Assembly (NCBI GenBank): GCA_043228905.1
Contig: JBHGNT010000005.1
Location: 18,848,001-18,912,000, forward strand
DNA from: Azolla caroliniana
Lineage: Eukaryota; Plantae; Polypodiophyta
Length of the DNA: 64,000 nucleotides
Direction: 5' to 3'
Shown here: positions 8,411-50,022 of the stretch, in pieces
Layout: every line of letters starts with the position of its first letter
Numbering within the stretch: position 1 is the stretch's first letter
Notes under the pieces: generated by a model
Databases searched by the model: none
What the model saw: only the letters and a program-made list of their open reading frames with translations
What the model was told of the DNA's origin: nothing
Made by a program: the position numbers and the translations under genes

Positions 8411-8754
8411 GAGAGAGAGAGAGAGCAGAACACAATTTCAAAATTATATCAAGACTCTGTACACACACTGTGCTAAGTAGCACTATTTATACAAGTCCTC
8501 TTGGGACTGACAGAAGTACCATGTACTTCAATGCTCACACGAGCATCTGACACTTACTACGAGACTATAGCTACCTAGTAGTCTATCCTATACTAGGCTT
8601 CCGATTGGACTTCCGGTTACAGATTGCACCCGGCCTCCACTGCTTGCCGGTTCGGTTGCTCACCGTCATACCGATCCGTTTTGCCCGATCCGTCTCGCTT
8701 ACCGGCTCCGGCTTATTCAGTCGATCCGGCTCCGGTTGAGCTTGCCGCTCAACA
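8411..8754 (-). repeat. 3' LTR of copia, truncated within its (GA)n tract
   Basis: Matches ~13850-14193; preceded in element sense by PPT CTTGAGGGGGAG (8755-8766). Confidence 0.92.
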
Positions 8755-9486
8755 CTCCCCCTCAAGCTCAACCTGAGGTGGGGTCGTAGTGTCAACCTCT
8801 GTGGCAGCCGGTTCTTCCAACCGACTTCTCCTGGCGTCACTCCGCCTTGCTCGCGCTCCTCGTCCGGTCTGGTCCCGTTTGCCGCGACCCCTTTGGTTCT
8901 GCGCGCCTCGACCCTCTCGGTCGGCATGTCTGCTCAATAGGCCCATCTCAGCACTCACGTTGTTGTGACTCCGACGCTTGCCGATCCGTTGGTTCTCCCA
9001 CGATGGCATCGACTTCCGCTGTGTCCGTGTCCCCATGGCCTTCAGTCGATCCGACTCATCCGAATCCATCTGTTGATCCGAGTCAGTTGTCTCCGACTCG
9101 TTCCAGCTCTTGTCCGAATCAGTACACTCCGATTCGACTTCCGGCTTCAGGCCTCTCACCACATCAGACCACTTCCGAGTCTTGGCCTTCTCCATGCTTC
9201 CCTCGGCTTCTTCAGCCGGTGAACCGAAATCAAATTCTTCATTCGACTCCGCATCATGGTCAGTACCGTCCTGATGACCTCCGCACAGCATGCACTTCTC
9301 TTCCTGAGTGCACAACTCTTCTTCACAGTCACTTGCTCCGACCTGTTCGGATGTGTCGACTTCCTTCGTCGACTCGACTTCCTTCATCTTCTTGTCTCCT
9401 CTTCTTCCGACTCTCCTCTTGCTTCTCCCCCTCAAGTGCGGCACGTCGAGATGCTGAATACCAAGCATGTCGGTAAAGTGCTGCAA
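8749..9486 (-). CDS. End of RNase H plus ~220-aa in-frame charged C-terminal extension of copia pol
   Basis: Same frame as 9646..12246; reads past the usual ...LRG end of pol up to the PPT. Confidence 0.65.
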   Translation of the reverse strand: MQHFTDMLGIQHLDVPHLRGRSKRRVGRRGDKKMKEVESTKEVDTSEQVGASDCEEELCTQEEKCMLCGGHQDGTDHDAESNEEFDFGSPAEEAEGSMEKAKTRKWSDVVRGLKPEVESECTDSDKSWNESETTDSDQQMDSDESDRLKAMGTRTQRKSMPSWENQRIGKRRSHNNVSAEMGLLSRHADREGRGAQNQRGRGKRDQTGRGARARRSDARRSRLEEPAATEVDTTTPPQVELEGEC

Positions 9487-9645
9487 CTTGTCCGATCCGA
9501 GCGGCTTGGTGAAGATGTCGGCAACTTGCTAATCCGTATGAACATACCGTAGGTCAACTTCACCGCTCAGGACCCGCTCATGCACGAAGTGGTAGTGCAC
9601 CTCGATGTGCTTTGTGCGAGCATGGAACACAGGGTTCCTGGCGAG

Positions 9646-12246
9646 CTACAGGCTGCTCATGTTATCGCAGTAAATCGGGATCAGGGTCAGTACCTCGATC
9701 CGCAAGTCTTGCAGTAGTCGCCGAAGCCAGATGGCTTCACAAGTGGCAACGGTAGCGGCCCGGTACTCAGCCTCAGTGCTTGACAAAGCCACTGTGGGCT
9801 GCTTCTTGCTGCTCCACGCAACGGCCGCGCTACCTATGGAGAACATGTATCCGGAAGTGGAGCGGCGATCAAACGCATCGCCGGCCCAGTCAGCATCTGT
9901 GTAACCGACAAGCTCTTCGGGTATACCTTGCCGGTACATCAGTCCCCGGTCCTTAGTGCCGCTGACATACTGTAATATTCGTTGCGCGCACTGAAGGTGC
10001 TCCACGGTCGGCTTCTGCATGAACTGACTTACCATGCCGACCGGATAGCTGATGTCGGGTCGGGTGATGGTTAAGTATATCAAGCTTCCGACAACCTGTC
10101 GGAACCGTTTCTGATTGCAGGCCGATCCGGAGTTGGGACGGAGCTTCTGGTTCCGGTCCAGGGGTGTGGAGACAGGTCGGTAATTCGTCATGCCGAACTT
10201 ATACAGCATATTCAACACGTAATGTCGTTGTGAGAGCAATATGCCGTTGGGGGTCCGGATCACTTCAATCCCAAGAAAATAATGGAGGTCCCCCAGGTCC
10301 TTCATTTCGAATGCGTCCGACAACTGGGACTTGACGCGGTTGATTTCGGGAAGACCCGGTCCGGTGATGACTAAATCATCCACATACAAGAGTATACATA
10401 CCGGACCGTCAGAGCCTTGCCGGATGAACAACGAAGAGTCCGACTTAGAGACAACAAACCCCAGCTTACGCAACCGGTGCGTGATCTTCGCGTTCCAAGC
10501 TCGGGGGGCTTGCTTCAAGCCATAAAGCGACTTCTTCAGTCGGCATACCGCCGACTTGTTCATCTCCGATTGAAATCCGGGGGGTTGAGTCATAAAGACT
10601 TCTTCTTCAAGCTCTCCTTGAAGGAAGGCGTTCTTCACATCCATCTGGTGAAGATGCCACCCCCTTGCCGCAGCAACCGCCAGTACCACACGAACCGTCG
10701 TCATCTTCGCCACAGGAGCGAAGGTCTCATCGTAGTCGATTCCGTGGGTCTGGGCGTATCCCTTCGCCACTGACCGGGCTTTGTACTGGTTAACAAAACC
10801 GTCGGCGTTGTACTTGACCTTGTACACCCACTTGCATCCGATCGGTTTACAGTGACGGGGAGGATCAACTAGGTCCCAAGTTTCGTTGGCATCGAGTGCC
10901 CGCATTTCTTCGTCCATAGCGGCACGCCAATTTGCGTCCTTTGCCGCTTCTGCGTAGCTCTCCGACTCACGCACTTCTGTCACCTTAGTCATGTACGCAT
11001 AATGATGCGCCATGTAGTCATTGTACCCGTACCGCATGACGGGATCTTTCTGGCGAGTTGATCGGCGCAACGCACCGTCACCTGATTTGAGGCCCGTCTT
11101 GGCCAGTTCGGTCTTCGTTGCCAAAGATCCGCCTTTCTCCTTTCCGGAGTCGGATACGCACCGATCTGACTCTTCGTTGCCGGTTTCGAATTCCGGCATC
11201 TTCCTCTTCCCCTTCTCTTTGCGCGTGAACCGTTTCCTTGGTTCCTTGCGCGGGGAGAGCACGGCAGAGTCTCCACCACTTGCCGTCTCTTCATCTGACT
11301 GGTCCAACCAACTCAGTCGCTTGTTTAGTCCACTCAACCGTAATGATTCCGGACCCTCAGCTTGAGTCCCGGCTTCATCATCCTCTGCCAGGGCTAATTC
11401 AGGCTCACTAGCCTGATCTTCCGGCATTGGGTCGGGATCGGAAGTCAGAGTTGGTACGGAGTACCAGGATGCCGATTCGTCGAACTCGACATCCCGGCTA
11501 ACTCGGACTTCCTTCGTCCGGGGGTTATAGCACTTATACCCCTTTTGCTCTTGAGCATAGCCGACTAGGATGCATTTTTCCGATTTTGCATCCAGCTTTC
11601 TCCGCTTCTGATCCGGCACATGCACATACGCTATGCTGCCGAATATCCGAAGGTGTCTTAAGTTCGGCTTGCGCCCGAAATACAGCTCATGAGCTGACAC
11701 CTTGTCACCGATGCGGTTTTGTATGTAGACGGCCGTCTGGACCGCCTCCGCCCAGTAGAACCGGGGCATGCTCTTTTCCTCCAGCATTGCCCTTTCCGCT
11801 TCGACGAGTGTCCGCTTCTTCCTTTCGGCCACACCGTTTTGCTTCGGTGTGTATCTGCAGCTGAACTCTCGCCGAATTCCCTTCTGCTGCAGATAACTAG
11901 TGAATTGGCCGGAAAAATATTCCTTTTCGCCATCCGACCGAAGGCATTTGATCTTCCTCTCCGATTCCCGTTCCACCATCTTCTGGAGGCTCCGGAAACA
12001 GTCAAAGACTTCGCTCTTTCGCTCAATGAGGTAGATCCAAGTATGTCGAGTATAGTCGTCGATGAAGGAGACGAAGTATCGGCTCCCGCCAAGGCTTACA
12101 CTTTGTGCCGGTCCCCACACATCCGAATGGATGAGATCGAGCTTGTTACGGCTCCGGTTCCGTTTGGTGGGGAATGGAAGCCGGTGTTGCTTCCCAAGTT
12201 GGCAGGCTTCACAAATTTCGGCTCTCCGGCCGCTGAACTTCGGCAA
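9646..12246 (-). CDS. Copia pol: integrase, reverse transcriptase, RNase H (premature stop at 9646)
   Basis: Motifs CEAC, HSDVWGP, QNGVAER, YVDDLVITG, YTDADWAG and STEAEY. Confidence 0.95.
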   Translation of the reverse strand: MPKFSGRRAEICEACQLGKQHRLPFPTKRNRSRNKLDLIHSDVWGPAQSVSLGGSRYFVSFIDDYTRHTWIYLIERKSEVFDCFRSLQKMVERESERKIKCLRSDGEKEYFSGQFTSYLQQKGIRREFSCRYTPKQNGVAERKKRTLVEAERAMLEEKSMPRFYWAEAVQTAVYIQNRIGDKVSAHELYFGRKPNLRHLRIFGSIAYVHVPDQKRRKLDAKSEKCILVGYAQEQKGYKCYNPRTKEVRVSRDVEFDESASWYSVPTLTSDPDPMPEDQASEPELALAEDDEAGTQAEGPESLRLSGLNKRLSWLDQSDEETASGGDSAVLSPRKEPRKRFTRKEKGKRKMPEFETGNEESDRCVSDSGKEKGGSLATKTELAKTGLKSGDGALRRSTRQKDPVMRYGYNDYMAHHYAYMTKVTEVRESESYAEAAKDANWRAAMDEEMRALDANETWDLVDPPRHCKPIGCKWVYKVKYNADGFVNQYKARSVAKGYAQTHGIDYDETFAPVAKMTTVRVVLAVAAARGWHLHQMDVKNAFLQGELEEEVFMTQPPGFQSEMNKSAVCRLKKSLYGLKQAPRAWNAKITHRLRKLGFVVSKSDSSLFIRQGSDGPVCILLYVDDLVITGPGLPEINRVKSQLSDAFEMKDLGDLHYFLGIEVIRTPNGILLSQRHYVLNMLYKFGMTNYRPVSTPLDRNQKLRPNSGSACNQKRFRQVVGSLIYLTITRPDISYPVGMVSQFMQKPTVEHLQCAQRILQYVSGTKDRGLMYRQGIPEELVGYTDADWAGDAFDRRSTSGYMFSIGSAAVAWSSKKQPTVALSSTEAEYRAATVATCEAIWLRRLLQDLRIEVLTLIPIYCDNMSSL

Positions 12247-12314
12247 ACCGAAAATGACTTGTTTCGTTTGCAGGTCTTGAAGCCTCCGGTAGTTGACGTG
12301 GGTATCCGCTTGTG

Positions 12315-13694
12315 CTACAGGTCGATGTCCGACTCAACCTTCTGTCGTTTTGCGAACAGAGCGGTGCCAAAGTCATTGGTGTTGAGGATAAACATCCTCC
12401 CGTCTCTGTGCCCTTGCGCAATGACTTCGCCCTCATCCTCAATGAAGCACCCGAGGTGCGTAAACCGCACCTGCATCCCCTGGTTGACAATCTGACCGAC
12501 GGACACCAGCTTCCCTTTTTGTCCGACGTGGCTTAGAGGGACTTCTCCGACGTGCACGATTGGGTGAGGAGTGTCGTCTCCGGTTTCGACTACTCCTGGT
12601 TGATCCGGTTTCTCCAGAAAGGAGAACCACTCTTTGTGGCTTGTCGTGTGGTTCGACGCGCCGGAATCAACATACCACACTTCCTCCGTTTTGGAAGTGG
12701 TCTTCTTCATTGAGTTTGCCTTGTGATTCATCACCAAGGCTGGCCCCTTATTGGCCTTTCCGGTTCCGGATCCTCCTGATCCGTTTGCGTAGTGCGAGTT
12801 TTGCCGGCCATCCTTACCAATCTTGCCGGATCCGGATTTGTCCGAATCGGCACGCTTTCTCCAGCACTCGCTTTCCCTGTGGCCTTTTTTGCCACAATAC
12901 CAGCATTCCGTAGCGGATTTGTCTTGTCGGCTTCCGGCACCGCCTTGACTTCCCCTACTTGTGGAAGTCCCGGAATTGTTGTCGGCACGCTCATAGTGCC
13001 TCTGTTCCTGCTCTTGCCGGCCGCCTCCATTGCGTGCCGACCCACCTCTTCCACCACGCCCACGGAGCCGATCCGTTTCCGTGTACAACATTCGGCTGTC
13101 CGGGGATGCACTGGTAGATGCACCGGCGTGGTTCTCCTCTACAAGGAGCATCGACTGTAAGTCGAAGAATGAGGGGGTATTCTCCCTTGTACACACCGCA
13201 GTACGGAACGCTCCGAACTTGGACGCCAGGCCTCCGAGGCATACCTGCACCATCTCGTCTTCCTCTATGGTAACATTGATAGAGGCGAGCGAGTCGTAGA
13301 TCTCCTTTATCCGGCCCGTGTAGTCTGCCACGAACATGTTCTTCTGTCGAACATTGCTCAACTCCTGTCTGAGTTGCAGCTTCCGGGCAGTGGTGCTTGC
13401 GGCGAAAACCTTTTTCAGGTTCCCCCAAGCATCCTTCGGTGTCTTGGTGTCACGGATGTGGCTGAGCAGCTGATCGCCGACACTGGACGCGAAGCAGTAC
13501 ATCACCCTGCTTGCCGCCTGTTCCCATACCGGGAAGTCCTTGTGTGCCGAGTCGGGCGCCGCATCATTCACTCCTTCGACATAACTCCAGTACCCGTGTC
13601 CAAGCAGGTACTGGTGCATCTTGTAAGACCAGGATGCGTAGTTGCTCCTGTCGAGCTTCTCCACCGGGAGCGACGTAGCCATGCCTCTATCCAT
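12315..13694 (-). CDS. Copia gag and protease (TGG->TAG stop in the GAG-pre region)
   Basis: Copia gag N-terminus, CCHC knuckle CWYCGKKGHRESEC, protease WYVDSGASNH. Confidence 0.93.
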   Translation of the reverse strand: MDRGMATSLPVEKLDRSNYASWSYKMHQYLLGHGYWSYVEGVNDAAPDSAHKDFPVWEQAASRVMYCFASSVGDQLLSHIRDTKTPKDAWGNLKKVFAASTTARKLQLRQELSNVRQKNMFVADYTGRIKEIYDSLASINVTIEEDEMVQVCLGGLASKFGAFRTAVCTRENTPSFFDLQSMLLVEENHAGASTSASPDSRMLYTETDRLRGRGGRGGSARNGGGRQEQEQRHYERADNNSGTSTSRGSQGGAGSRQDKSATECWYCGKKGHRESECWRKRADSDKSGSGKIGKDGRQNSHYANGSGGSGTGKANKGPALVMNHKANSMKKTTSKTEEVWYVDSGASNHTTSHKEWFSFLEKPDQPGVVETGDDTPHPIVHVGEVPLSHVGQKGKLVSVGQIVNQGMQVRFTHLGCFIEDEGEVIAQGHRDGRMFILNTNDFGTALFAKRQKVESDIDL

Positions 13695-13776
13695 GTCTTC
13701 TACTGTGTCTGTTTTCGACTTGTTAAGGTTTTCTTCTCAAGAGTAAATGTCTGCAGCAGAGGTTCTCAACCCTCGC

Positions 13777-13788
13777 GCTCTGATACCA
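13777..13788 (-). other. Primer binding site, tRNA-iMet
   Basis: TGGTATCAGAGC directly after the 5' LTR. Confidence 0.95.
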
Positions 13789-14193
13789 TGTAAACGTAAG
13801 TGTTTGCGGAAGCGTAAAACAAAGAACAACACACAGAGAGAGAGCCAGAGAGAGAGAGAGAGAGCAGAACACAATTTCAAAATTATATCAAGACTCTGTA
13901 CACACACTGTGCTAAGTAGCACTATTTATACAAGTCCTCTTGGGACTGACAGAAGTACCATGTACTTCAATGCTCACACGAGCATCTGACACTTACTACG
14001 AGACTATAGCTACCTAGTAGTCTATCCTATACTAGGCTTCCGATTGGACTTCCGGTTACAGATTGCACCCGGCCTCCACTGCTTGCCGGTTCGGTTGCTC
14101 ACCGTCATACCGATCCGTTTCGCCCGATCCGTCTCGCTTACCGGCTTCGGCTTATTCAGTCGATCCGGCTCCGGTTGAGCTTGCCGCTCAACA
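13789..14193 (-). repeat. 5' LTR of copia (405 bp)
   Basis: TG...CA termini, adjacent PBS. Confidence 0.95.
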
Positions 14194-15260: not shown

Positions 15261-15787
15261 TGGACAAACACCAAAATACCCAACCATATATGTATCATTG
15301 CAAAATGTTGTATGACTTGGAGGGAGGATGGCCTGCACTTTTACTAGATAATGTTCCGATGGTCAAAATTTCACATGAATCTCAAAGCTATCCTTGCACT
15401 GTCCATTGTATATGTATATGTATGCATGTCTCACGTAATCTCAACCATTTTGAATTGAATGAATTCATTCGGATAGCAGATGGAGATGCAAATGCAAAGG
15501 GCAACACCCAACACACCACAATCCACAACACAACGCAACTTAAAACAATACAACACAAACTTAACACTACAAAATCCTTGCTCTCTCATCATATTCGCTA
15601 CCTCTTCTTCTTCCTCTTCTTTTCCTTCTCTTCCTTCTCCTTCTTCATCAGACTCTTAAGAGAATTGTTTAGCCACTCCAGTCTGTCAGTCTGACAGACA
15701 AAATGGCTACGAAAGATCTCTCTCCCTCTCTCTCTCTCTCAGAACAATCAAGAAAGCAAAGCTCGGCGAACAGTTTTCCCCCTCCCT

Positions 15788-15958
15788 ATGTTGTCTCCTT
15801 CCAATTCTTCTTCTTCTTCTTCTTCGGCAATGGCCGTAGAACAGAAGCTTGTCATCAGTGAGGAGCTCCTTCGTATTTGGAAGACCTCCTCAAGCTCTCA
15901 GAAGCTCCATGTTCAGCTTCCTCCTGCACGCTTCATCTACGAGCTCTTCTGGACTGTG
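15788..15958 (+). CDS. THO2: First coding exon of a THO complex subunit 2-like gene
   Basis: EQKLVISEELLRIWKTSSSSQKLHVQLPPARFIYELFWTV resembles, from memory, the plant THO2 N-terminus (ECKYVTEEFVRE.K....KL...P.LRFLYEL.W). GTGAGT donor at 15959 (phase 0) and a CT-rich leader upstream. Alternative start at 15830. Confidence 0.75.
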
Positions 15959-16959
15959 GTGAGTGCCTTTCTCCTATTATTTTTACCCTTTCCGTTGTTC
16001 TGTTGTCGCTACTTCTTTTCCCTATTTGTTTTCTCTGTTTGAAGACAAGATGATGGCAGTTTTTAGACTGCGTTGGAAAACATATACTTGATTTCTGCTT
16101 CCATTATCATGAAGAAAAATGAGATTTTATTTGCTTTTTCAAGAGTAGGAAATCATGAGGAAGTAACTCGTGTCCAAGGAAAAAAAGCTTTATTTCTGCT
16201 TTGTGTCTCAAGAGGAGAATATTTTCTCGTTTCAAGAGAAGGAAATGGTGAAAAACAAAACTACAACTCCTACTCAAGGGAAAATGTCATTCCTTATGAA
16301 GAGAAAAAGCAGATTTTATTTGGTGAAGAGAAGGGAATGGTAAGAAGGTAGCTCAAATTCAAGGAAAGCAGATAGCTTTCTTGGAAAAACAGATTGTATT
16401 TTCTGAAGCGAGGAAATGATGAAAGATGAAACTTGTGCTCAAGGAAAGTACAATGTTTTCTTTCTAATGAGGAAGAAAAGAGGATTTTATTTGATGAAGA
16501 GAGGGAAATGATGATGAAGTTGGTCATGCTCAAAGAAAGCTGATTTTAATTGCTGAAGAGAAGGAAATAGCTGGAAAGTAGTCCACGTTCAGAGTTGTAG
16601 TTTTAGTTCAAAGAATGGCCTTGTTCTGGTTCTGATGCTCAGTTGAAACAAATGAAAATAGTAGAAGTGAGCATAATTTGGGTGGGCAGGCAAATGGTAC
16701 ACATCCTCTTGGAACATGACCATTATGACATCCATATACCAAATGGTCATGATCTCATTCATTTACTCTAACGTCAACATGGAAACAACCACATCATGAT
16801 AAACCACATTGTCATTGAGTGCAAGGATGCATTCGTCGAGGTGCACCTACATGATGACAAACATAAGTAACACATGCGCACTCTTTTGGATCCCTTTTTG
16901 AAAGTATGTTACAAATTTGACATTATAATATCAAGAAGCCTAAAAGCCTTCGTGCCCAT

Positions 16960-18135
16960 TTCACCATAGTTATCTGATGGCGTTGCACGTCTTTGCATGT
17001 AATAGTCATAGGCCCAACCATTGGGTTGCATTGGGATGTTCAAGCCATGTGTCGATCCTTAGTTACGATGCAATGGTCGATCGACATGTTACATATCGTA
17101 TGTATCGCCATATATGCTATATTCTTCAAGGTGTTAGTCACCTTATTATTAAGTGGATTCAAGAGACTATTTGGTTAGTCACATTTGTAGCATCTACACT
17201 AGTCGCATCTTTGTCCAAAGCACCCAATGACTTGAGTGCAATGTGGGTATGAAGATGTAATCATGCTCAACCACATGTTCGAGGATGTCTTCCATCTTAA
17301 AACTTTGCTTTTGAAGTTGCACCCAAAGTGGGTCAACGATGTGGAACTTTTCTGACACCTCTTGAGACAATGTGTACTCCATCCACATGGTGAATGGACT
17401 CGTGGTCTACATGGATGCCATTTCCCCCCCAAGTTGCACATCATCCGCAAATCTGACTCATCCATGAAAACTGCGAGATTGAGTCTTTGACAAGCAAGCT
17501 AAAACCTTTTTCCAATCAACAATGCAAGTATATCGAGTGTTTGACATACAAGTTTTTCAAAACACAATGCTATTACTTGACAAATTGTTTGTTGGTTGTC
17601 ATGTCCTATGTTTTGGTGGCATTACCAAATCCAATGTTGTCAGTTCCCACATCAGGTGCACCCTCATTGGAATCTGATGTAATCTCCTCACATGGAGTTA
17701 GGTCCACCTCATTTTGTCTTACAATATTTTTTCCCTTCTTGGTCTAGTTGATGGTGTCTTGTCACATGGTTGGTGTTGTCCACAATAGTTGATAAAGCAC
17801 CATCATCTGTTGATATCCCAACCTTCTTACACTAAAAATTTTATGGTTTGACTCAACATATTATAAAAGCCATACCTTGTTTTAGTCACATACTAATCAA
17901 TTTTGAAGTTTCATACTTATATAATAATCATATCTAGATGCAAACTTTATCTTCAACTTGTCTAATCATTCTTTTCTAGAGTCGTTTATTGCTACCTCGT
18001 GAATTGTGAATCTTGCCATGAATCTTGACTTAGTGTTGTCTTAGAGTTTAATTGTAATGTGTAAGAACTGGGTTGCCACCCTTATCTTAAGCTTCCTCAT
18101 GTGTGATTGATGATTTTGTGTGTATTTTACCTCGG
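16960..18135 (-). pseudogene. Ulp1-like peptidase remnant, copy B
   Basis: KFHIVDPLWVQL...DYIFIPTLHSSHWVLW (catalytic His region), with a degraded IPMQPNG motif downstream. Confidence 0.65.
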
Positions 18136-18141
18136 GCTCCT

Positions 18142-19295
18142 TAAAATGCTTTAGTCACTATTGTTGCTCGTAGTTGTTGAAAAATGTCATGCCACTATTC
18201 TTCTCTATCGTACCTTGTTTCATTTCCTCTATCCTTAGCCCTCTTGGAAACATTATATCAATGCCATGTACCTGTCATAACATAGTGACATAAAATTAAT
18301 AGTTGTGAGGATTGAACCTACAACCTCACATCAATAAGATATAATGCTCAATCATTTGGATATAAACATATATTTGTATATAATAGGTAAGTATTGTATA
18401 GTTTAACATATAGTACATTCTAGAATATTCTAGTCTTTAATATATTTTAGAAATATTCTATTATGTATTTTAGACAGATATATTTTAGAGATATTTCTCG
18501 AGTATATTTTAGAGATATTCAATCTTAGAACTTGTATAAATACCTGTAACTTCTTTGCTCCTTTTTAAGGGATTCAATGCTAGTCATTGGCACATCAATC
18601 TAGTATTCTTGTTTCGCACCATCTTGTCTCGATCTTTATCTTTGTCTTCATTCTCTTTTGTTATTTCTAGTGTTTTAAGTTCCTCGGGAAGTTGAGAACA
18701 ATGATTTGAGGAACTTAGAACATTGGGAATGACGCAAGACAATGAAGATAGAGAGGAAGATCGAAACAAGATGGGCAAAACGAGAATACTAGATTGATGT
18801 GTTAATGACTGACGTTTAATCTATTAAGAGGGACCAAAGAGGTTACAAGTATTTATACAAGTTCTAAGATTGATTATCTCTAGAATATACTCGAGAAATA
18901 TCTCTAAAATATATCTATCTAGAATACACTATAGAATATTTCTAGAATATATTAAAGCTTAGAATATTTTGAAATGTACTATATGCTAGATTATACAATA
19001 CTTAACTATTATATACAAATACATACTCATATCTAAATGGTTAAACATGCCATTTTATTGATGTGAGGTTATTGGTTTAATCTTCACCAACTATATATTT
19101 TGTCACTGTGTCGTGACAATACCTTTTGCAAGTATGTCATTATCTATTATTTTTTCCAAAATCATTGTTGTGCTCGTTGGGATTACTCAAGCATTATACA
19201 TGATCAAGATTTTATCCACACTTAATATTGACCACATTTGAAGAGCAAAAGTGGGTTAAGTAAATCTAGTGTAACATATACATTAGAATTGTTGG

Positions 19296-19337
<42 letters not shown>

Positions 19338-19856
19338 TTATAGGATTATGACAATGTACATAAACTCAGCTATTGGAGGAGCATATTTACACACATTGAC
19401 AAAGATTGAGGCTAACAACATAGAGGCAACAATGGTCGTTTCTCATCTTTGGTTGGACCCCATACTGAAACATGTAACATAAGAGGAAGATCCTCCTTCA
19501 AAAGATGAGTTGATGTACATCATTGTAATCCTATAATAGTTATGTATATATCGACCAACCAATCTAATGCATATCTTATACTATATTTAGTTGACCCACA
19601 TTTGTTCTTAAAGTGTGGTCGAGATTCAATGAGGATAAAATCTCGATTATATATAATGCTTGCGTAATTATGGTGAGAGCAATGATGGTTTTAGAAGACA
19701 TAAAAGATGAAGGCACATTTGTGAAAGGTACATGGTATTGATGTAGTGCTTCCAAGAGGACTGAGGATAGAGGATAAAAACTAGGGTACTTCGGGGAAGA
19801 GATGTGGCAAAATGTTCTTAAGCAATTATAAGCAGCAACGGTCGCTAAAATGTTTA
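18142..19856. repeat. Older foldback palindrome (centre ~19435), interrupted by an 846-bp insertion
   Basis: 18142-18272 plus 19119-19385 is the diverged reverse complement of ~19490-19856. Confidence 0.85.
18273..19118. mobile_element. 846-bp fully palindromic LTR-like element with 5-bp TSD
   Basis: TGTCATAAC...GTCGTGACA ends, arms complementary up to a ~22-nt loop near 18695, flanks GTACC/ATACC. Confidence 0.85.
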
Positions 19857-20342
19857 CCTCCTCATTTTCAATGTACCAATCAAATCATTGTCTTCACTAA
19901 ATGGTGTCTCTAAATTGTGTGCACTAAATCTTGTTCGTTGTCAATTTGAGATATCTTCTAGTCTTGGTAATATCTTTCTTATTATGTTTATCGTTGTCTT
20001 CCTTAAACATCCAACTTTTGTCAGTGTAAAGTCATACACAATGATATCCACCTCACTAATGTCAATAATAGATGTATTACAAAAGTTTAAAGCATCACCA
20101 CGTCCAAAACTTTACCAATGCAGAATTGGTGCTCTAAGTGATGGCCATCTACATGTGTAGCTATTAATATCCCCACCTTGAGTTCTTGCAAGTTTCCTTG
20201 TCACCTGAGTTATGCTGGTGTTGTCATCCTTAGTTCCAGATAAATGTTTCTTTGTTGTAGATGAACCAAACTATGAAGATCAACATTAAGTGCTTGAAGT
20301 GGTGATTAAGAACCACGAGAATATTTTATACACCACATAAAT

Positions 20343-21625
20343 GACATTTGCAAGGTTCAATTACCATTAACACAATTCTTAATGGTTTTTTGTTAATCAG
20401 TGAAACACATGTTTACCATAAGGTGTATTGTGCAACATATTTCTTTGCAGTATCGATGTATATATTTTTCTCTTATAAAAACAGAGATTTTAGTACAATT
20501 CGAGTTCATGTAAACCCTAAACCTCTTTTATTTGAATAAAAATATAATTTTTAAACATGAACTCTATGCTTTATATCGAGTTAATGTAAAAAATAGAGTT
20601 TCGATCACAATTACATACAATGTATCAAATTCATGTTCAAAGTTTTTTTCTCGAATTTAAAAAAAATAAAAATAAAACAATTGAGCTTGAGTTGATGAAA
20701 AACCTAGTTTTTTCACCACAATTCAAACAATGTATAGAGTTCATGTTTAAAGTAATTTTTTCAAATTTTTTTGATATTTTATTTTTTTATTTATAATTTG
20801 TTTTTAAGAAAAAAAAACTTTAAACATGAATTCTATACATTGTATCGACTTCTAATGAAAACTCTAGTTTTTGCATCACTTAAAAAAAAAAGAAAAAAAG
20901 ACCCAAAATAGATAGAAAAAAATAAAAAAACTTTAAACATGAACTCAATACATTGTATCGAGTTCGTGTTGAAGAACTCAACTTTTTGACATGAACTCGA
21001 TGCAATGTATCGAGTTCACGTTTAAAGGTTTTTTTTTAGGGTTTTAAAAAAAACAATTTTGGTTTTTTTCTATTTATTTGGGTCCTTTTGGTTTTTTAAA
21101 AAAGAAGTTGAAATGATGAAAAAACTAGAGTTTTTATCACAAGTCGATACAATGTATTGAATTTATGTTTAAAAGTTTTTTTTTTCAAAAAAAAAAAAAA
21201 CATTCAAAAAAAAAAAAAAAAAAAAAACTTTAAACATGAACTAGGTACATTGTATTGAATTGTGGTAAAAAATCTGGTTTTTCATCAAGTCAAGTTCGAT
21301 TTTTTTTTTTTTAATTTGGGAAAAAAAACTTTGAACATAAATTTGATACATTGTATGGAATTGTGATGAAACGCTGTTTTTACATCAACTCAATACAATG
21401 TATGGAGTTCATGTTTAGAATTTTTTTTTTTCAAATAAAAGAGGTTTAGGGTTACATGAACTCAAATTGTACTAAAATATCTGTTTTGACAAGAGTAAAA
21501 GATGCATATCGATGTTGTAAAGAATTATGTTACACAACAAGATACCTTATGGTGAACATGTGCTTCCGTGATTAACAAAAAACCATTAATAATTGTGTTG
21601 ATGGTAATTGAACCTTGCAAATGCC
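20343..21625. mobile_element. 1.28-kb foldback element with modular internal palindromic repeats (MULE/FB-like)
   Basis: GACATTTGCAAGGTTCAATTACCA pairs with TGGTAATTGAACCTTGCAAATGCC; repeated CATGAACTC.ATACA.TGTATCGAGTTCATG modules with A/T tracts; centre ~20980. Confidence 0.85.
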
Positions 21626-21781
21626 ACATACCATCGTTTTGTATTAGGTTTTATTTTTCTTAATTAATTGTCTTAATCTCAATGTCTCTCTTTCTCTCTC
21701 ACCTTTGTATTCTTTAACTCTCACTATCCCTCTTACATACATCCATCTATTGTATACCGCTTGCACTCCTTGCATTGACCT

Positions 21782-23465
21782 AATTGAAAAATGAGAAGGC
21801 ACATTTGTTCAATAATATACATTGGTATGTCACAACAGGAGGGAGAAAATACAGAGATTGCTCATGTATACATGAGGAGAAAGTTCCTCTTTATAAAGGC
21901 CAAGATCTGGCCATTAGACTAACTAGCTATTAGAGCTAACTAGCCGTTGGGCTAGCCATTATAACTTTTAATCATTCAACACTCCCCCTCAAGATGGGCG
22001 AAAATATCCACTAAGCCCATCTTGTCACACAATTTAGTAAAACTTACTTGCCCAATTCCCTTTATAAGACAATTTGCTACTTGATGTTCAATAGAAACAT
22101 GACTCAATTTAAAATTTCCATTATCAAGTTTCTTCTCGATAAAGAATTTGTCGATTTCGATGTGCTTGTTCCTCTCATGCTGTACCGGATTGTTGGCAAT
22201 GTTGATTGCTGACTTATTGTCACACCACAACATCATCTGATTTTTTTGATTCACCCTTAGTTTTACTAGGAGAGTTCTCAACCATAACATCTCCGCAACT
22301 CCTACAACAATAACTTTATACTCTGCTTCGACTGTTGACCTTGTTACTACTGACTGTTTCTTACTCTTCCAAGAGACTAGATTGCCCCCAACAAACATGC
22401 AGTATCCTGATGTGGATTTCCTATCAAATGACGGGTTGAGATGTTTTCAAAATTGCATGGTTCTTCTTTGAGTAGAAATTCTTTGCTCTTACATTGAGGA
22501 TCATTGCACACTGTCATAGGCGAGAAATGATCATATTCTCCCTATAGACCCTCCAACTCTATGGCATATTCTTGAATCATCATATCTCCCTACCAGACGA
22601 TATCTATCTCTTGCTCGATTTGAAATACTTTCATGTTATTTCCCCTCCCAACATACGTCTTTTGCAATTTCTCCCAAATTTCCTCAACACTTAAAATTCC
22701 ATCAACGATTGTGGCGATTGATGGAACCATGGAGTTGAGAAGTCATGCGTACAAAGACATGTGGGTAGCTCTCCATGCTTTCCAATCATTGCTTGTTTTG
22801 ACAAGAGGTTCTTTCTCTTCTCTTGTTAGGTAGCCGTCAAGGCTTCTCCCTGCCAAGGCACCTATAATTCGACGCGACCAGCTCAAGTACGTGGCTGGTC
22901 CATCGAGTTTGAACTCAATTGGGAGGAGTTCAAGTTGAGGTAGTGGTTGTGTTCTTGTCACACCTCCATATGCTACAATCTCGGCTTGCTTCATGTATTT
23001 CACTAATGTTTTCACCTCATCCTCGTTCAATTTTAAGAACACCTCATCCATCTTCTCAAATTAGCCCATCTCTGCTCTCCTCTTCTGAATTCTTTTCTCA
23101 AGTCGCCTCTCAATCACATAGCAATGTCATCCCTTAAGGGAAAAAATCCCCTTTCCTCTCTTGGATGCTAGGATAGTGCTGTTCCAATCGTGGTCATACC
23201 AACAAAAGGGTGGATCTAGGTTTTGCAGAGGGTTGATCTAGGGTTTTATAGAGGGGCGGATCTATGCTCTAATACCAAATTGAAAAATGAGAAGGCACAT
23301 TTGTTCAATAATATACATTGGTATGTCACAACAGGAGGGAGAAAATACCGAGATCGCTCATATTTACATGAGGAGAAAGTTCCTCTTTATAAAGGCCAAG
23401 ATTTGGCCGTTGGGCTAACTAGCTATTGGAGCTAACTAGCCATTATAACTTTTAATCATCCAATA
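21782..23465 (-). mobile_element. Internally deleted Ale-like Ty1/copia (LTRs 21782-21981 and 23278-23465)
   Basis: TSD GACCT on both sides, PBS TGGTATTAGAGC, PPT, gag start (KLDGPATYLSWS) joined to RNase H (GGNLVSWKSKKQ..HIEID). Confidence 0.9.
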
Positions 23466-23494
23466 GACCTCAAGGTCAACAACTCCTAAACCTC

Positions 23495-26400
23495 GATGTA
23501 AAGTACACATAAAATTGTCAAACACACATGAAGAAGCTTAAGGTAAAGGCGGTGTGCCAATTCTAGTCCACTTCGATTCAATACCAAGGAGAAAATGAGC
23601 TAGAATTCGTGGCAAGATTCATGGCTTATGAGTTGAGGATATGTCATTAGACAAAGGAAAAATAGATGGAGAAGCTAAACATAATGATTGATGTTGGATA
23701 TAATTCTTATGTAAATATAAAACGTCAATATTATTTTGAATGTGACTGACTTTTGTAATATGTTGAGTCAAATTCTTAATTATGCAATGTAAGAAGGTTG
23801 GAAAATCAACAAATGATGGTGGGTTTCAATCGGTGGTGAACAAAGCCACCCATTTGAACATGGGACATGATGGCCAACAAAGAATTTGCTAGGCAATATC
23901 GTAATGTTTTGAAAACTTGCATGTTGAAGACCGCATCCAACTTACATTGTTGATTGGAAATAAGTTCTAGTTTTCATGTCGAAGAATTGATCTCGTGGTT
24001 TTTGTGGCTAAGTCTAATTTGAGGGCGATGTGCCAAGTGAGGGAAAATGACATCCACATGGACCATGACTATTTCACCATGTGGATGGAGTTCACGTGGC
24101 CCAAAGAGGTGTCTGAAAGGTTCCACATCGTCGATTCACTTTGGATTTAGCTTTAGAATCAAATTTCTAAGGTGGAAGACATCCTTGACCAAGTGCTAGA
24201 GCGCGACTATGTCTTCATACCCACGTTGCACACAAGTCATTAGGTGCTTTGAACGAAGATGCAACATAGTTAAATTAGTGTATTTGTTACGAAGGTGACC
24301 AACCATCTAGTCATTTGTGATCCACTTTATAATGGGTGATTGGTGCCTTGCAGAATCTAACATATATGGCGATATTGTGTCGTGATGTTTTCAAAACAAT
24401 GTGTGAAGCCACCCTTAATATGAAATAAAATAGTAGGTCAAATAAATTAATATTGTTAAGTAAACATTATTAGTAACAAAAATACATTTACATTTGTTAA
24501 AGAGCATGTTTTATGAATGAAAGGTCATAATTTTAAATCTTGTAATAAATGGTAAATATAAAGTTGGAGATGGTTTTCAAAAGTAGATAAAAAAACTTAG
24601 AAAAAAGTGGGATAAAAAAAGTAAAGTGTGGATATAAAGAGTTAGGTAAAGAAAAAAGCTCATAATTTCTTCATCCGATATCCAAGTTCAAAAAGAAAAG
24701 ATTCATAAGAAAGCTAACAAGAAGAGCTTCCCAAAAATATCTCTCTTCGCCCCCCCTTCTTTGATAAACTATCATATTATAAAATAAATCGTAATTTGAT
24801 TCATATGTTATAAAAGCTCTTAATTTGTAAACAAGTAATGTTTCCTTTCACCTATGTGTCTTTTGTGTAAACCTTCCCCTTGTATGATTATATGTCTTGT
24901 GATTGGGGACCGTTTCAAGCGTGCTCATGTACCCCTCCTTTCACAAAGGCATTTTAACTTTTGTGTCTCGTGTGTAAACCTTTCTTTTGTGTTATCGTGT
25001 GTCTTGTGACCGGGAAGGTTTTAGGAAACCATGCACCTCTCCTTATCATAAAGGCGTTTGGACATTCGTTTGCGTGTTCTTGTCTTTTGTTTGTGTGTTC
25101 ATGTGTCTTGTGACGGGGAAGGTTTTGGAAAACAATGCACCTCACTTTCTCATAAAGGCGTTCGGTCATTTGTGTGCATGTTCTTGTTTTTTGCTTGTGT
25201 GTTTGTGTCTTTTGACAAGGAAGGTTTTGGTAAACCTTGCACTTCTCCTCCTTATAAAGGCGTTTAGGCATTGGTGTGCTTGTTCTTGTCTTTTCTTTAT
25301 GCGTTCCGTTGTCTTGTGATGAGGAAGGTTTTGAGAAACCATGTACCTCTCCTTTTGACAAAGGCATTAAGATTTGTGTCTTGTGTGTGTAAGCCTTTTT
25401 CTCATACATTTGTTTGTCTTGTGACTAGGGGTTTGGGAATAAAGGCACAAGAGTGCCCAAACGCCTTTATGAGAAGTGTGCATTGTTTCTTAAAACCTTC
25501 TTCGTTACAAGACGAACAAACACACAAGGAAGAGACACGAGCACGCATATAAATACTGAAACGCCTTTATCAGGAGGTGCATGGTTTCTCGAAACCTTCC
25601 CCATCACAAGACGCATGAACACACAAGCAAGAGACAAGAACACACACACACGAATACTTGAACGATTTTATGAGGAGGTGAGGTGCATGGTTTCCCGAAA
25701 CCTTCCCTGTCACAAGATGCAGAACACACAAGGAAGAGACAAGAACATACACATGAAAGTTCGAACACCTTTATGAGGAGTTGAGGTGTATGGTTTCCCG
25801 AAACCTCCCCGTCACAAGATGCACGGACACACACAAGCAAGGGACAAGAATACATACATAAATGTTCGAACGCCTTATGAGGAGGTGAGGTGCATGGTTT
25901 CTCGAAACCTTCCGCATCTCAAGTCACATAAACACACAAAAGCGAAAGAGAAGAACAAGGACACGAATTTCGGAAAGCCTTTATAATGAGAAGTCCATGG
26001 TTTCTCAAAACCTTCCTTGTCATAAGACACACGAGACACAAAAGTTTGAATGTCTTTGTAAAAGGAAAGATACATGGGACACTCTAAACTCTCACCAATC
26101 ACAAGACATATGAACACATAAGAGGAAGGTTTATACATAAGACACGTAGGTCAAAGGAAAAATGACTTATTTACAAATTAAGAGCCTCTTTTATAAAATA
26201 AGAATAAAATTCAACAGGTTCTCGCATAAGAAAATAGTTTATCAAGGGGGGCGAAGAGAGATGGAGAAAAGAAATTAGTGGAGCATAAAAGAGAGAAATC
26301 CTTGATTGTTAATGAGGTCCCCCAATTTGACAGCTTCGTTGTCTCCTCTTGATGTTGAAGCTTCACGCTCTTCTTAGTTAAGATCCCTCTTCTTTTGCAT

Positions 26401-27000
26401 TTTGATTCCATAGAGTTTACGCGTCTTCTTCTTTTCTCTTATTCCATAGATGTTTTTTATTTTTATCACTATTTTTTTTTTTGTAATCTTAAATTTAATA
26501 TGCTAGATATTTTTGGAAAGCTCTTCTTGTTAACTTTCTTATGAATATTTTCTTTTTGAATTTGGATATCAAATGAAGAAATTATGAGCTTTTTTCTCTA
26601 CCTAGCTCTTTATATCCATGCCTTGCTTTTTTTCCTCACTTTTTTCTTTGTTTTTTTATGTACTTTTAAAAACCACCTCCAACTTTATATCCTTCGCCAT
26701 TTATTACAAGATTAAATCCTATGACCTTTCATTTATAAGGCACACTCTTTGACAAATGTAAAAGTATTTTTGTTACTAACAAAGTTGACTTCACAACATA
26801 TTAGTTTATTTGACCTATTATTTTATTTCCTATCCGGGTTGGTTTCACACATTATTTTGAAAACATCACAATGGATGGTATATAGCGTGCCGGCCAACCA
26901 TTGCATTACAATAGAGGGTTCACATCACACCTTGTACGTCCCAATGCAACTAATGGTAGGATTTGTGGCTATTACGTGGAGTTCATTGAACTGCTAGAAG
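23495..27000 (+). pseudogene. Ulp1-like peptidase remnant, copy C, split by a 2.5-kb palindrome
   Basis: Inverted homologue of 16960-18135. The His motif (DYVFIPTLHTSH) lies before 24377, and the VPMQ..G..CGYY-like Cys region resumes after ~26872. Confidence 0.65.
24378..26872. mobile_element. 2.5-kb foldback element with internal ~100-bp tandem repeats
   Basis: GTGATGTTTTCAAAACAATGTGTGAA pairs with TTCACACATTATTTTGAAAACATCAC; inner repeat arrays switch strand near 25435. Confidence 0.85.
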
Positions 27001-29257: not shown

Positions 29258-30616
29258 ATGTTGTATATTGTATATTGTCAAATGTATATGATGTTGCCAT
29301 AACATTGGTATGTAATGTTTGTGGTATATGATGTTGCCATAATTTTGTCAATTTTAAGTATATGATGTTGTATAAGATCATGCAATCATGTGTATGAAGA
29401 CGGAGTGTTAGATTAGATAGTTGGGATCTTATCTATCTGATAGAGATGCAAATGTTTGTCTTGTGTGTGACTTCACTGTAACCTGGGGCCTATATACTAA
29501 CCCGGACCTTGTTTAATGTAAAATTTTAAACAACCCGAGGAAGTAATTTATGTCTGCAATCCAAGAATAATTATGTTTATCACCAACTACTTGCAATGAT
29601 ATTGTTTCGACAATAAGAAAACCACCACCTCCATCAACAAATTTTTTGCAGATTTTGAAGTGATTTACACAAGCAAAGCTATCAAAATCACATGAATTTG
29701 AGCAACCACATCTACCATTCCTGGATTGCTCTCTCATCCACAACACTCGCTGTCATATTGCTCGACATTTTCATATTTCTTTAAGTACTATCATATTGCT
29801 CTCATTTACACATTGTAACACCTTTAGATTCATGTGGGTTAGCCCTAAACCAGATGATTGATGCATATCATGTGGAAGAATTAGATTTTTTATTTGAGTC
29901 AGAATTCGAATTAGAGGAAACTGTCTGATGTAGGAACTTCAATTGAATGAAATGATGCCCAAGGGTCTGAGGTTGTTGAGACCAAGGATGACATGGATCC
30001 CTTCATGTAATGTCCCCCAAGGTATTTTGAGTTGTTGTGAAGTTATATGCATGCGTGTGAAAGCCTAGCAAATCCATTGAGGATTCGAACTATGGAGAAT
30101 AGAGTGGCAAACCTTTGTGGATACGATGCTCCAGTTGGCCAAAGTGCACTTGCTTGTTTGGATGTGTGCAAGGTTTAAGTCCAAGTTTGCTCGAAGTTTT
30201 ACATATATACTTGTGAGTATGTCAAGTTTAGCGTAATTCAATAATTGTTAACTAGTAATTTAGTTATTTATTACTTATTATTCATTTATCTTATTATTTG
30301 ATGATTTACTTGCTTAATTATTTACTTATTTAATCATTTGAATAATACTATTGTTTATTTATTTATTTATTTCAATTTCAATTGCTAAAATAATTTATTT
30401 ATTTACTTAACTAATATCATAACTCTTATTATCAAATTATTAATAAGATTATATCATTTACATATTTATTTTTTCTATTTATTTAATTATGTACCTAACT
30501 TTAGTATTAACATTAATGTCTCCATATTTTTTATTTTATTCTATTTACCTATTTATTAATCAATATAATTTATACTAAATTGTAAAATTATTGTTATTAA
30601 CTATTTTATGTTAATA

Positions 30617-43422: not shown

Positions 43423-44362
43423 CGGTTCACATTTGAATCCGGCTCTCCGATCCGACTCTGGCTTGTTCAGCCGATCCGGATACGGTTGATCTTGCTCGCT
43501 CAACACACCTCAAGCTCTTATACCAGTTTCTGGAGAATGGATTGTAGATGAACGAGAAAGATCTGTTGAAAATATACACAATGCGGAAACAGAAAACAAC
43601 AAAATAGATAGGGAATGCACAATAGACAGTATTTACGTTGTCGAGGTATTCCTCGCGGATGCGTGGAATGGGGCGGGACCTCGGGGGTCTTGTACCGAAG
43701 AGCAAGAGAGAAAGGAGAAGGGAGGGGACCCACTACGTGCTAGCGTAGATTCACAGGGACACGGCCCTTCGATACAAAGACGCGAGTGGGACGCAGACAC
43801 CGAGGGACACGAATGTATGTAAATATATATATTAACAAACAAACAACAAGAAGCACGAAGTCTGTTACAACCGAACAGGCCGGCGAATAGATGCCGATGC
43901 CTGTTCGTAAACGCACAGAAAGGAAAGAGTAGGTTGGAGGTGCTGCCGGAAGCACTCGGGCATTCCTCAGAGCAGCGCGAGCCTCCCGAAACCTACACAG
44001 CAAGAAGCTACGGAGTTTGCGAGCCAGAGAGAGAGAGAAGCCTTCGCCCACAAACCGACAGCACTTCGTCCTCGACTCTCTGCGATGCCTTCCTCTTCCT
44101 CGTCTCCCTCCTTTTATAGGCAAGAAGGGAGCCGTTTCCTATTAACTTCCTACCTACCGAATCTACCTACCTCGGATCTTCCATGTCCCTAATTCTCTCT
44201 TATGTACAACATAAGGCGTACGTGCATGAAGAGCCGGGTCCTATGCTTCGGCGCACCGATTCCGCTCGTGGACGGTTTTCTTCACGACATCCGCCCCCAC
44301 CTAACCGCGCATCCACCGGCATGCGCCAAATTGAGTTGGGACAGAGAAAACCGGTCCAACCT

Positions 44363-49982: not shown

Positions 49983-50004
49983 CTTCTGCTCTTCTGCCGC
50001 CTCC

Positions 50005-50022
50005 TTCACGTCGGGTTCACCA
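50005..50022 (-). other. 18-nt primer binding site complementary to plant tRNA-Trp
   Basis: TGGTGAACCCGACGTGAA complements TTCACGTCGGGTTCACCA, the plant tRNA-Trp 3' end as I recall it. The same PBS occurs at 36228 and 62199. Confidence 0.85.

What the first reader, a model, noticed from the sequence alone, without database searches (positions are those of the whole stretch)
18273..19118. Integrated 'snap-back LTR': an 846-bp palindrome built from two head-to-head LTR 5' halves, with a verified 5-bp TSD
Seen: TGTCA...TGACA ends and arms complementary along their whole length to a ~22-nt loop. Each arm has a tRNA-like box near the end, an inward-facing TATA (CTTGTATAAATAC, ~18531 and ~18848) and a TC-rich R-like tract. 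Flanks are GTACC/ATACC, and the mirror arm of the host palindrome keeps the empty site with one GTACC (19727-19731, reverse strand), so it inserted as a unit. Known: TG..CA ends with a 5-bp TSD are the LTR-integrase signature, but solo LTRs are not self-complementary and DIRS elements usually lack TSDs. Inference: a non-autonomous hairpin element with two U3 att ends, perhaps from self-primed fold-back during reverse transcription, whose convergent promoters would produce dsRNA.
Basis: partly seen in the sequence, partly recalled or inferred. Interest (0 to 1): 0.85.

Follow-up and report, generated by a model that had tools for sequence, protein, structure and literature searches.

The report
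Old tail-to-tail LTR palindrome insertion
An 846-base mirror-image insert in a plant genome is built from two facing copies of a very common repeat that is likely a retrotransposon end (LTR), and it sits in one 5-base insertion scar; it is likely an old one-off copying error that the element's integrase still pasted in, not a new family of jumping genes.

Summary
The palindrome is real. The arms match at 345 of 410 aligned positions around a 22-nt spacer, and the ends read TGTCA...TGACA. The duplication is GTACC/ATACC (4 of 5, not perfect). Two empty sites and contigs from three studies support both outer junctions; the centre join was not bridged.

The arms belong to a repeat laid thousands-fold deeper than single-copy DNA, while the centre is only about 6-35-fold. 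A related contig (L001) holds one arm that runs on, without a mirror, to a TGACA end, giving an LTR-like unit of about 470 bp. Read inward, each arm has the TATA 12-mer and spacing of this window's Copia LTRs.

Best reading: two nearly complete LTRs, U3 ends outward, integrated as one faulty cDNA, most likely a fold-back product. No parent element, second palindromic copy or RNA was found, so 'non-autonomous family' is unsupported. Rivals are a post-insertion template switch, an inverted double insertion and a long-TIR DNA transposon. An outward-pointing tRNA-like box (Helenus-like) leaves arm polarity partly open. A plus-strand G·U bias (33:17) is unexplained.

The parts
18268..18272 (+). Left copy of the target-site duplication (GTACC)
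18273..18685 (+). Left arm: about 413 bp of an LTR-like high-copy repeat, TG end outward
   Evidence: depth; 82% identity to L001 over 187 columns
18297..18370 (-). Degenerate tRNA-like stretch with a B-box-like motif, pointing out of the element (left arm)
   Evidence: ARAGORN at 80% threshold only, 1 of 44 calls in the window; B-box pattern in 0.1% of 20,000 simulated arms, pattern chosen after seeing it; negative at default and in Rfam
18418..18513 (+). Array of five TYTAGA words upstream of the TATA; resemblance to heat-shock-type LTR promoter boxes is recalled, not tested
18531..18542 (+). TATA 12-mer, 258 bp from the left end, facing inward
   Evidence: same 12-mer 259 bp from the U3 start of the Copia LTR ending at 8754
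18615..18685 (+). TC-rich R/U5-like tract of the left arm
   Evidence: same layout as the Copia LTR
18686..18707 (.). 22-nt asymmetric spacer; loosely continues the right arm's homology to L001
   Evidence: low depth
18708..19118 (-). Right arm: inverted copy of the same repeat, TG end outward
   Evidence: 82% identity to L001 over 172 columns
18850..18861 (-). TATA 12-mer of the right arm, facing inward
19021..19094 (+). Mirror copy of the tRNA-like stretch, more decayed (coordinates by symmetry; pattern hit at 19038)
19119..19123 (+). Right copy of the target-site duplication (ATACC, one transition)
18142..19856 (.). Older host palindrome (arms 18142-18272 plus 19124-19314 against 19536-19856; K2P 0.33) into whose left arm the element inserted
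19727..19731 (-). Empty target site (single GTACC) in the host's mirror arm
15830..15958 (+). Context: THO2-like first exon 2.3 kb upstream; no later exon in the window

Best explanation
The element is an old single insertion of two inverted, nearly complete copies of a high-copy repeat that is likely an LTR, and it was likely made as a faulty reverse-transcription product with two U3 ends that the LTR integrase then likely inserted, leaving the 5-bp duplication. Shown: the palindrome, one target site, high-copy arms, a low-copy centre and a one-armed relative. Inferred step 1: plus-strand strong-stop DNA (U3-R-U5) stopped a few dozen bases short of the U5 end, folded back or switched onto another plus strand and was copied back to the U3 start. 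Inferred step 2: a second plus strand annealed to the copied arm and made it double-stranded. Inferred step 3: integrase used the two identical TG...CA ends. A sub-variant is two separate cDNAs each donating a U3 end, with host repair joining the middle. With no primer site, purine tract or ORF the insert is predicted to be unable to copy itself. If transcribed it would form a ~410-bp hairpin matching a large repeat family.
For: One target: TSD 4/5 (p 0.011), empty mirror site, and an X2 contig that runs from 18273 to 19141 with exactly the length of an empty site and letters that differ from the mirror arm (table 5c). Host arms (K2P 0.33) are older than the element's (0.18). High-copy arms: summed contig depth reaches 98,577 (X1) against about 50 for single-copy flank contigs, and falls to 307-944 at 18658-18751. 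On L001 it reaches 153,950 (X1) and 60,377 (X3). One-armed relative: L001 has the arm once, with no mirror in 1,247 bp, and runs on to a TGACA at 287. Three X3 contigs follow that tail to 279-289, and a contig in both runs starts matching at exactly 288. L001's tail shares only a short terminal inverted repeat with the arm start, as an LTR would. Promoter layout: the 12-mer occurs 5 times in 64 kb (0.02 expected), twice in the arms and three times elsewhere. Two of those three lie in the LTRs of a Copia element with gag-pol, PBS and PPT; the third (42572) is in a similar stretch. The offsets from the TG end are 257-259 bp. Both arms share a non-majority letter at 8 of 29 pairs (p 0.002-0.21 depending on the assumed background). 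Literature: Ty1 integrase inserts foreign DNA with TG...CA ends and makes 5-bp TSDs (PMC2939329, abstract). Template-switch cDNAs are integrated as one unit with TSDs (PMC1950507, passages).
Against: No parent element was found: no PBS, PPT or pol next to any copy of the arm, and no genome is held. LTR identity rests on layout and on one 1.2-kb contig from another sample. Most family depth stops matching L001 near position 205 (from over 10,000 to 150-290 in X1), so L001's tail represents only a few copies and the usual continuation was not seen. The centre join is not bridged by a listed contig, and at 18718 all depth listed carried a letter other than the window's. No priming microhomology could be shown. 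The tRNA-like box points the other way, as in Helenus LTR 3' ends. The region holds three or four other long palindromes with no LTR features found, so non-retro routes to palindromes operate here. PMC3187697 gave 0 occurrences of 'self-priming' or 'inverted', so I have no paper for the fold-back step itself.
Confidence: 0.45

Rival explanations
1. An ordinary solo LTR was already in place, and a DNA-replication template switch primed at the LTR's short terminal inverted repeat replaced its last ~35 bp with an inverted copy of its own 5' part. The TSD is kept and no unusual integrase substrate is needed.
For: Explains one TSD, shared letters between the arms and the asymmetric spacer that continues one arm. 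Several palindromes with no LTR features found lie within 10 kb. The family has thousands-fold depth, so a rare event has many chances.
Against: The left end follows the U3-type start, not L001's tail, from base 7 on, leaving only about 6 bp to prime across ~450 bp (one tail example only). Template switching at short inverted repeats is recalled; PMC4689423 was seen as a listing only.
Confidence: 0.15
2. The arms are long terminal inverted repeats of a non-autonomous cut-and-paste transposon with an integrase-like transposase (Ginger2/TDD- or GingerRoot-like), and this copy is an internal deletion derivative.
For: TG...CA ends with inverted arms; TDD-4/5 have 5-bp TSDs and 260-297-bp TIRs (PMC2836005, passages). 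GingerRoot occurs in bryophytes and lycophytes (PMC6839031, passages). High arms with a low centre is also what TIRs around variable interiors give.
Against: L001 is one-armed and bounded by a short inverted repeat only. The 413-bp arms exceed the TIR lengths in the passages read. GingerRoot has 6-bp TSDs and mostly TA ends. The promoter layout matches the window's Copia LTRs. No stand-alone transposase appeared among the 14 ORFs scanned (14 of 73 listed).
Confidence: 0.14
3. Polarity is reversed: the repeat is a Helenus-like LTR with a tRNA-derived pol III promoter near its 3' end. The outer ends are then U5 ends, and the product arose from minus-strand DNA folding back within U3. This concerns polarity and can combine with the other routes.
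For: Read outward, each arm gives an A-box-like stretch, a B-box, a T-run and CA about 30-40 bp later. This is the order seen in the Helenus LTRs of the supplement, including Selaginella Helenus-1_SMo with 5-bp TSDs (PMC10886601).
Against: The box scores below default thresholds, and similar boxes occur at 3 other places in the window by the spaced-box pattern. The ~467-bp unit exceeds the longest Helenus LTR in that paper's hymenopteran section (323 bp). The TATA 12-mer and TC-rich tract fit the inward reading.
Confidence: 0.14
4. Two elements inserted at the same target in opposite orientation (inverted double insertion). Each was reduced to a solo LTR, and the unstable junction with its middle TSD was deleted.
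For: Inverted LTR-element tandems with a target motif at the junction exist in Drosophila (PMC5932611, section 9). Central deletion of palindromes would remove both U5 ends. Arm-to-arm identity (84%) is about the same as arm-to-L001 (82%), which does not require the arms to be sisters.
Against: Needs base-exact reuse of the site plus three further events. No target-site remnant in the spacer. Shared non-majority letters lean to one source.
Confidence: 0.1
5. Assembly artefact.
For: The centre is not bridged by any listed contig.
Against: The arms differ at 65 of 410 columns, unlike a read fold-back. Both outer junctions are present in contigs of three studies and fit one empty site.
Confidence: 0.02

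Closest known systems
Solo LTRs and non-autonomous LTR elements (TRIMs) inserted by Copia/Gypsy integrase
   Same: TG...CA ends, 5-bp TSD (about 80% of plant LTR TSDs, PMC6911290 passages), TATA then TC-rich tract, no ORF
   Different: Two copies are inverted, both truncated at the inner end, with no PBS or PPT between them
Template-switch complex LTR insertions (Sabot and Schulman 2007, PMC1950507, passages)
   Same: An aberrant cDNA integrated as one unit under one TSD
   Different: Those have three direct LTRs and two interiors; this has two inverted LTR pieces and no interior
Inverted tandem (double) insertions of LTR elements (McGurk and Barbash 2018, PMC5932611, passages and section 9) and antisense nested EVD insertion (PMC11624286, passages)
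   Same: LTRs of one family in opposite orientation at one locus, able to give hairpin or convergent dsRNA
   Different: Those keep full elements and a junction target motif or a nested TSD; here only an asymmetric 22-nt spacer remains
Helenus / TRIMp3 (Kojima 2024, PMC10886601; parts 1-4 of 6 and supplement passages)
   Same: tRNA-like box near one LTR end followed by a T-run and CA; 5-bp TSD in the plant member
   Different: Helenus has direct LTRs with PBS and PPT and shorter LTRs (120 bp in Selaginella); here the box is degenerate and opposes a pol II-type TATA
Ginger2/TDD and GingerRoot DNA transposons (PMC2836005, PMC6839031; passages)
   Same: Inverted ends with TG...CA termini; 5-bp TSD in TDD-4/5
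   Different: Shorter TIRs, 4- or 6-bp TSDs in most members, and a transposase; the arm here also occurs one-armed (L001)
DIRS-1-type elements (recalled; PMC3950715 seen as a listing only)
   Same: Inverted terminal repeats on a retroelement
   Different: Use tyrosine recombinase and generally leave no TSD; have an internal complementary region and ORFs, none seen here

Membership tests
LTR-integrase insertion | TG...CA termini | tested here: met
LTR-integrase insertion | 4-6-bp target-site duplication checked against an empty site | tested here: met
   5 bp, 4 of 5 identical; two empty sites
LTR-derived arm | Arm occurs as a dispersed TG...CA unit with only a short terminal inverted repeat | tested here: inconclusive
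   One example (L001) plus a few contigs; most family depth leaves L001 near 205
LTR-derived arm | Parent copies flanked by PBS and PPT around gag-pol or a TRIM interior | not testable with these tools
   No genome held; collection scans gave no further homologue
LTR-derived arm | U3-R-U5 layout with TATA | tested here: met
   Same 12-mer and offset as the window's Copia LTRs; layout only, not activity
TRIM / solo LTR | Direct LTRs with PBS and PPT, or a single LTR | tested here: not met
   Arms are inverted; 22-nt spacer with no PBS or PPT
Helenus (TRIMp3) | tRNA-derived A and B boxes in the LTR | tested here: inconclusive
   Relaxed ARAGORN call and B-box motif only
Helenus (TRIMp3) | Two direct LTRs with PBS and PPT | tested here: not met
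   (for this insert; the parent family is untested)
Ginger2/TDD or GingerRoot | TIR pairs shared with a transposase-coding partner | not testable with these tools
   No genome; no such ORF among 14 of 73 ORFs scanned
GingerRoot | 6-bp TSD, 100-150-bp TIRs | tested here: not met
   5-bp TSD, 413-bp arms
MITE / foldback family | Many dispersed copies of the whole palindrome, each with its own TSD | tested here: inconclusive
   Centre depth only about 6-35-fold single copy and explained by arm homologues; no fold-back joints in 572 short contigs
DIRS | No TSD; tyrosine recombinase; internal complementary region | tested here: not met
   TSD present; no interior or ORF over 78 aa overlapping the element

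The most novel reading that the evidence does not exclude
The palindrome is one member of a small family of LTR-derived fold-back units that are re-mobilised by an LTR integrase acting on two identical ends, a retrotransposon-to-DNA-transposon intermediate. It may also be a locus kept because its plus-strand transcript, downstream of a THO2-like exon, forms a G·U-preserved hairpin that silences a repeat family of thousands of copies.
Probability: 0.12. Interest if true: 0.75.

Novelty: new variant of a known kind. Interest (0 to 1): 0.32.

Why it matters
As a one-off it is a fossil showing that a plant LTR repeat can end up as a self-complementary unit under one integrase scar. Such hairpins are proposed triggers of family-wide silencing (PMC11624286, passages), but a ready example in a decayed copy changes little. 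It would matter more if further copies with their own TSDs exist, because that would be a route from LTRs to MITE-like elements. It would also matter more if small RNAs map to it. Unreviewed AI notes report similar inverted-LTR inserts in this and other genomes, so a systematic count of fold points and end types could make the mechanism testable.

Tried and rejected
No whole genome is held, so the arm could not be searched genome-wide. Window self-BLAST found no other copy of the arm.

Collection scans: 1 locus in metagenome contigs (L001); 0. The 3 loci and the loci held (106 reported, 80 listed; 110 records in the BLAST file including L001) gave no homologue except L001, with best other hits of 23-30 bp at E 0.035.

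No RNA holder was listed, which is no evidence on expression. The RNA-guess run X7 gave only 3 partial contigs under 90% identity. No fold-back joints appeared, but contigs are short and this locus's own centre was not seen either. Rfam gave only sub-threshold miRNA-hairpin hits, which any long hairpin gives. The Atlas held no model for the gag ORF. The THO2-like exon had no Pfam or PDB hit, and tblastn with 3 THO2 proteins found no later exon. TYTAGA is not enriched window-wide (73 against 79 expected), only clustered in the arms.

A transcription-linked mutation bias across a THO2 intron was considered for the G·U excess, but two downstream palindromes lack it (37:35). DIRS and a perfect fold-back assembly artefact were rejected. 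Ten literature searches listed no paper describing palindromic solo-LTR pairs under one TSD in plants; subscription journals and Repbase are not covered.

Full report
Observation. Window 18273-19118 begins TGTCA and ends TGACA. The arms 18273-18685 and 18708-19118 match at 345 of 410 aligned columns, with 50 transitions and 15 transversions (K2P 0.18), around a 22-nt spacer. The plus strand folds to -492.9 kcal/mol, z -42.6 against 20 shuffles. The flanks are GTACC and ATACC: 4 of 5, chance 0.011, and one mismatch is expected at this age with probability 0.58. The element interrupts the left arm of an older palindrome (18142-19856, K2P 0.33) whose mirror arm keeps a single GTACC at 19727-19731.

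Independent data. No genome is held. Ten of 14 listed runs hold part of the stretch, four of them half or more. I laid four runs. Contigs of X1, X2 and X3 (three studies, one possibly the assembly's source) cross the left junction (18000-18334; 0, 0 and 2 differences) and the right junction (0, 0 and 1 differences). An X2 contig goes from 18273 to 19141 with 16 letters between, the exact length of an empty site, and differs from the mirror arm, so it is a second empty copy of the host repeat. No listed contig bridges the centre, and at 18718 all listed depth carried a non-window letter; 3,824 pieces were not shown. Arms 16% apart and a matching empty site make an artefact very unlikely.

What the arms are. 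Summed contig depth over the arms is 795-98,577 in X1 against about 50 on the flanks. It drops to 944 and 307 in the two central bins (X2 313 and 122 against 9; X3 307 and 106 against 19). The tool warns that summed depth is not a copy number; I use it only as an order of magnitude. One metagenome contig, L001, carries the arm once, 82% identical to each arm, with no mirror copy in 1,247 bp. It runs on to a TGACA at 287. Laid on L001:130-460, X1 and X3 reach depths of 153,950 and 60,377. Three X3 contigs follow the tail to 279-289, a contig in each run begins matching at 288, and none of 303 plus 269 contigs shows a joint. The tail shares only the terminal few bases with the arm start. This suggests a TG...CA unit of about 467 bp (my estimate from the alignment offsets), of which the arms hold about 413 and 433 bp. 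Against this, depth on L001 falls to 150-290 (X1) after position 213, so most of the family continues in a way I could not see.

Polarity. The 12-mer CTTGTATAAATA occurs 5 times in the window (0.02 expected): in both arms, in both LTRs of the Copia element at 8.4-14.2 kb, and at 42572. That element has gag, integrase and RT, a PBS and a PPT. In its LTR the 12-mer lies 259 bp from the U3 start and is followed by a TC-rich tract; in the arms it lies 257-258 bp from the outer ends, facing inward. The families are otherwise unrelated by BLAST. This favours U3 outward. A degenerate tRNA-like stretch (18297-18370, minus strand) points the other way and is followed by a T-run and the terminal CA. That is the order seen in Helenus LTRs (PMC10886601, parts 1-4 of 6 and supplement passages). 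It is found only at ARAGORN's 80% threshold, as 1 of 44 calls in the window, and not at default or in Rfam. I put about 75-80% on U3 outward, with the box being a captured SINE-like head.

Mechanism. Shown: one target site, two inverted pieces of one high-copy repeat, no PBS, PPT or ORF. Inferred: plus-strand strong-stop DNA stalled near the U5 end, copied itself or a sister strand back to the U3 start, was made double-stranded, and was inserted by integrase through two U3 ends. Ty1 integrase accepts foreign DNA with TG...CA ends and makes 5-bp TSDs (PMC2939329, abstract only). Template-switch cDNAs are inserted under one TSD (PMC1950507, passages). I found no paper for the fold-back step (PMC3187697, passages). 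To ask whether the arms are sisters I used 35 of the 40 rows shown table 3 (203 in all; I dropped 18617, 18718, 18719, 18761 and 18762). Both arms share the non-majority letter at 8 of 29 distinct pairs, the mirror has the majority letter at 20, and a third letter at 1. Significance runs from 0.002 to 0.21 with the assumed background. The three-way count with L001 (20 sites shared by the arms, 17 and 9 shared with L001) is not decisive. Rivals that give the same sequence are a replication template switch at an inserted solo LTR, an inverted double insertion (PMC5932611, passages and section 9) with later deletions, and a long-TIR Ginger-like transposon (PMC2836005 and PMC6839031, passages).

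Possible consequence. On the plus strand, mismatched transitions give G·U pairs 33 times and A·C 17 times (p 0.033; inner half 19:4, outer half 14:13, split chosen by me). The host palindrome gives 40:15, while two palindromes further right give 22:20 and 15:15 (element plus host 73:32, p 8e-5; Fisher against the other two, p 0.018). A THO2-like first exon with a GT donor lies on the plus strand at 15830-15958 (58% identical to the start of a liverwort THO2-domain protein). No later exon is in the window, so the element is either in a very long intron or beside a gene fragment. Strand-biased deamination or selection on a transcribed hairpin could both explain the bias; neither is shown. LTR hairpins are discussed as triggers of silencing in PMC11624286 (passages), where the link was not tested.

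Comparison and verdict. It works like an integrase-inserted LTR derivative, but fails membership of TRIM, Helenus, GingerRoot and DIRS as an element. Membership of a MITE-like family is untested and unsupported. Ten literature searches listed no description of this exact structure in plants, within the library's limits. Unreviewed AI notes describe inverted-LTR inserts under one TSD twice in this genome and in several others; these are leads, not support, and suggest a recurrent kind of accident. The host is a land plant that I did not identify. Verdict: a real, old, probably one-off variant of a known kind; interest 0.32.

Noticed in passing
window 15598-15960 (+): THO2-like first exon (43 codons, CT-rich leader, GT donor) with no later exon in the following 48 kb: a giant intron or a captured fragment.
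   Followed up: partly
window 18142-19856: Older AT-rich palindrome with a (TA)n tract near its centre; low-copy paralogues in the runs; plus-strand G·U excess 40:15; ends and TSD not resolved.
   Followed up: partly
window 20342-21626: 1.3-kb fold-back element with ~90% identical outer arms and internal ~110-bp AT-rich repeats in both orientations; no clear TSD seen.
   Followed up: partly
window 24382-26869: 2.5-kb fold-back element with 361-bp inverted ends (315 of 360 columns identical) and internal ~100-bp repeats, FB- or MULE-like.
   Followed up: partly
window 17103-18134 and 23494-24374: Large old inverted repeat (about 75% identical) enclosing the host palindrome, a second palindrome and a Copia remnant: a nest of palindromes.
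   Followed up: partly
window 18273-18290 and 19103-19118: The element's first 18 bases form their own small inverted repeat, so the terminal motif is present twice at each end.
   Followed up: no
window 61640-61712 (-), 36868-36920 and about 36990-37050 (+), 30136-30180 (+): Further degenerate tRNA-like A/B-box stretches in AT-rich DNA, one as a tandem pair; possible SINE heads.
   Followed up: partly
window 8411-14193 (-): Nearly intact Copia element with 99.4% identical LTR parts (344 bp); the downstream LTR is cut short at its U5 end. A 75% identical older relative lies at about 37-42.7 kb.
   Followed up: partly
window 43639-50676 (-): Young Gypsy-type element with 651-bp LTRs 98% identical, a purine tract and an apparent 4-bp TSD (ACGT).
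   Followed up: no
window 21778-23463 (-): Short, internally deleted Copia remnant with ~200-bp LTRs (89% identical) and an RNase H-like fragment.
   Followed up: no
L001 288-460: Low-copy repeat next to the arm-like unit, present in X1 and X3 with different upstream sequence.
   Followed up: partly
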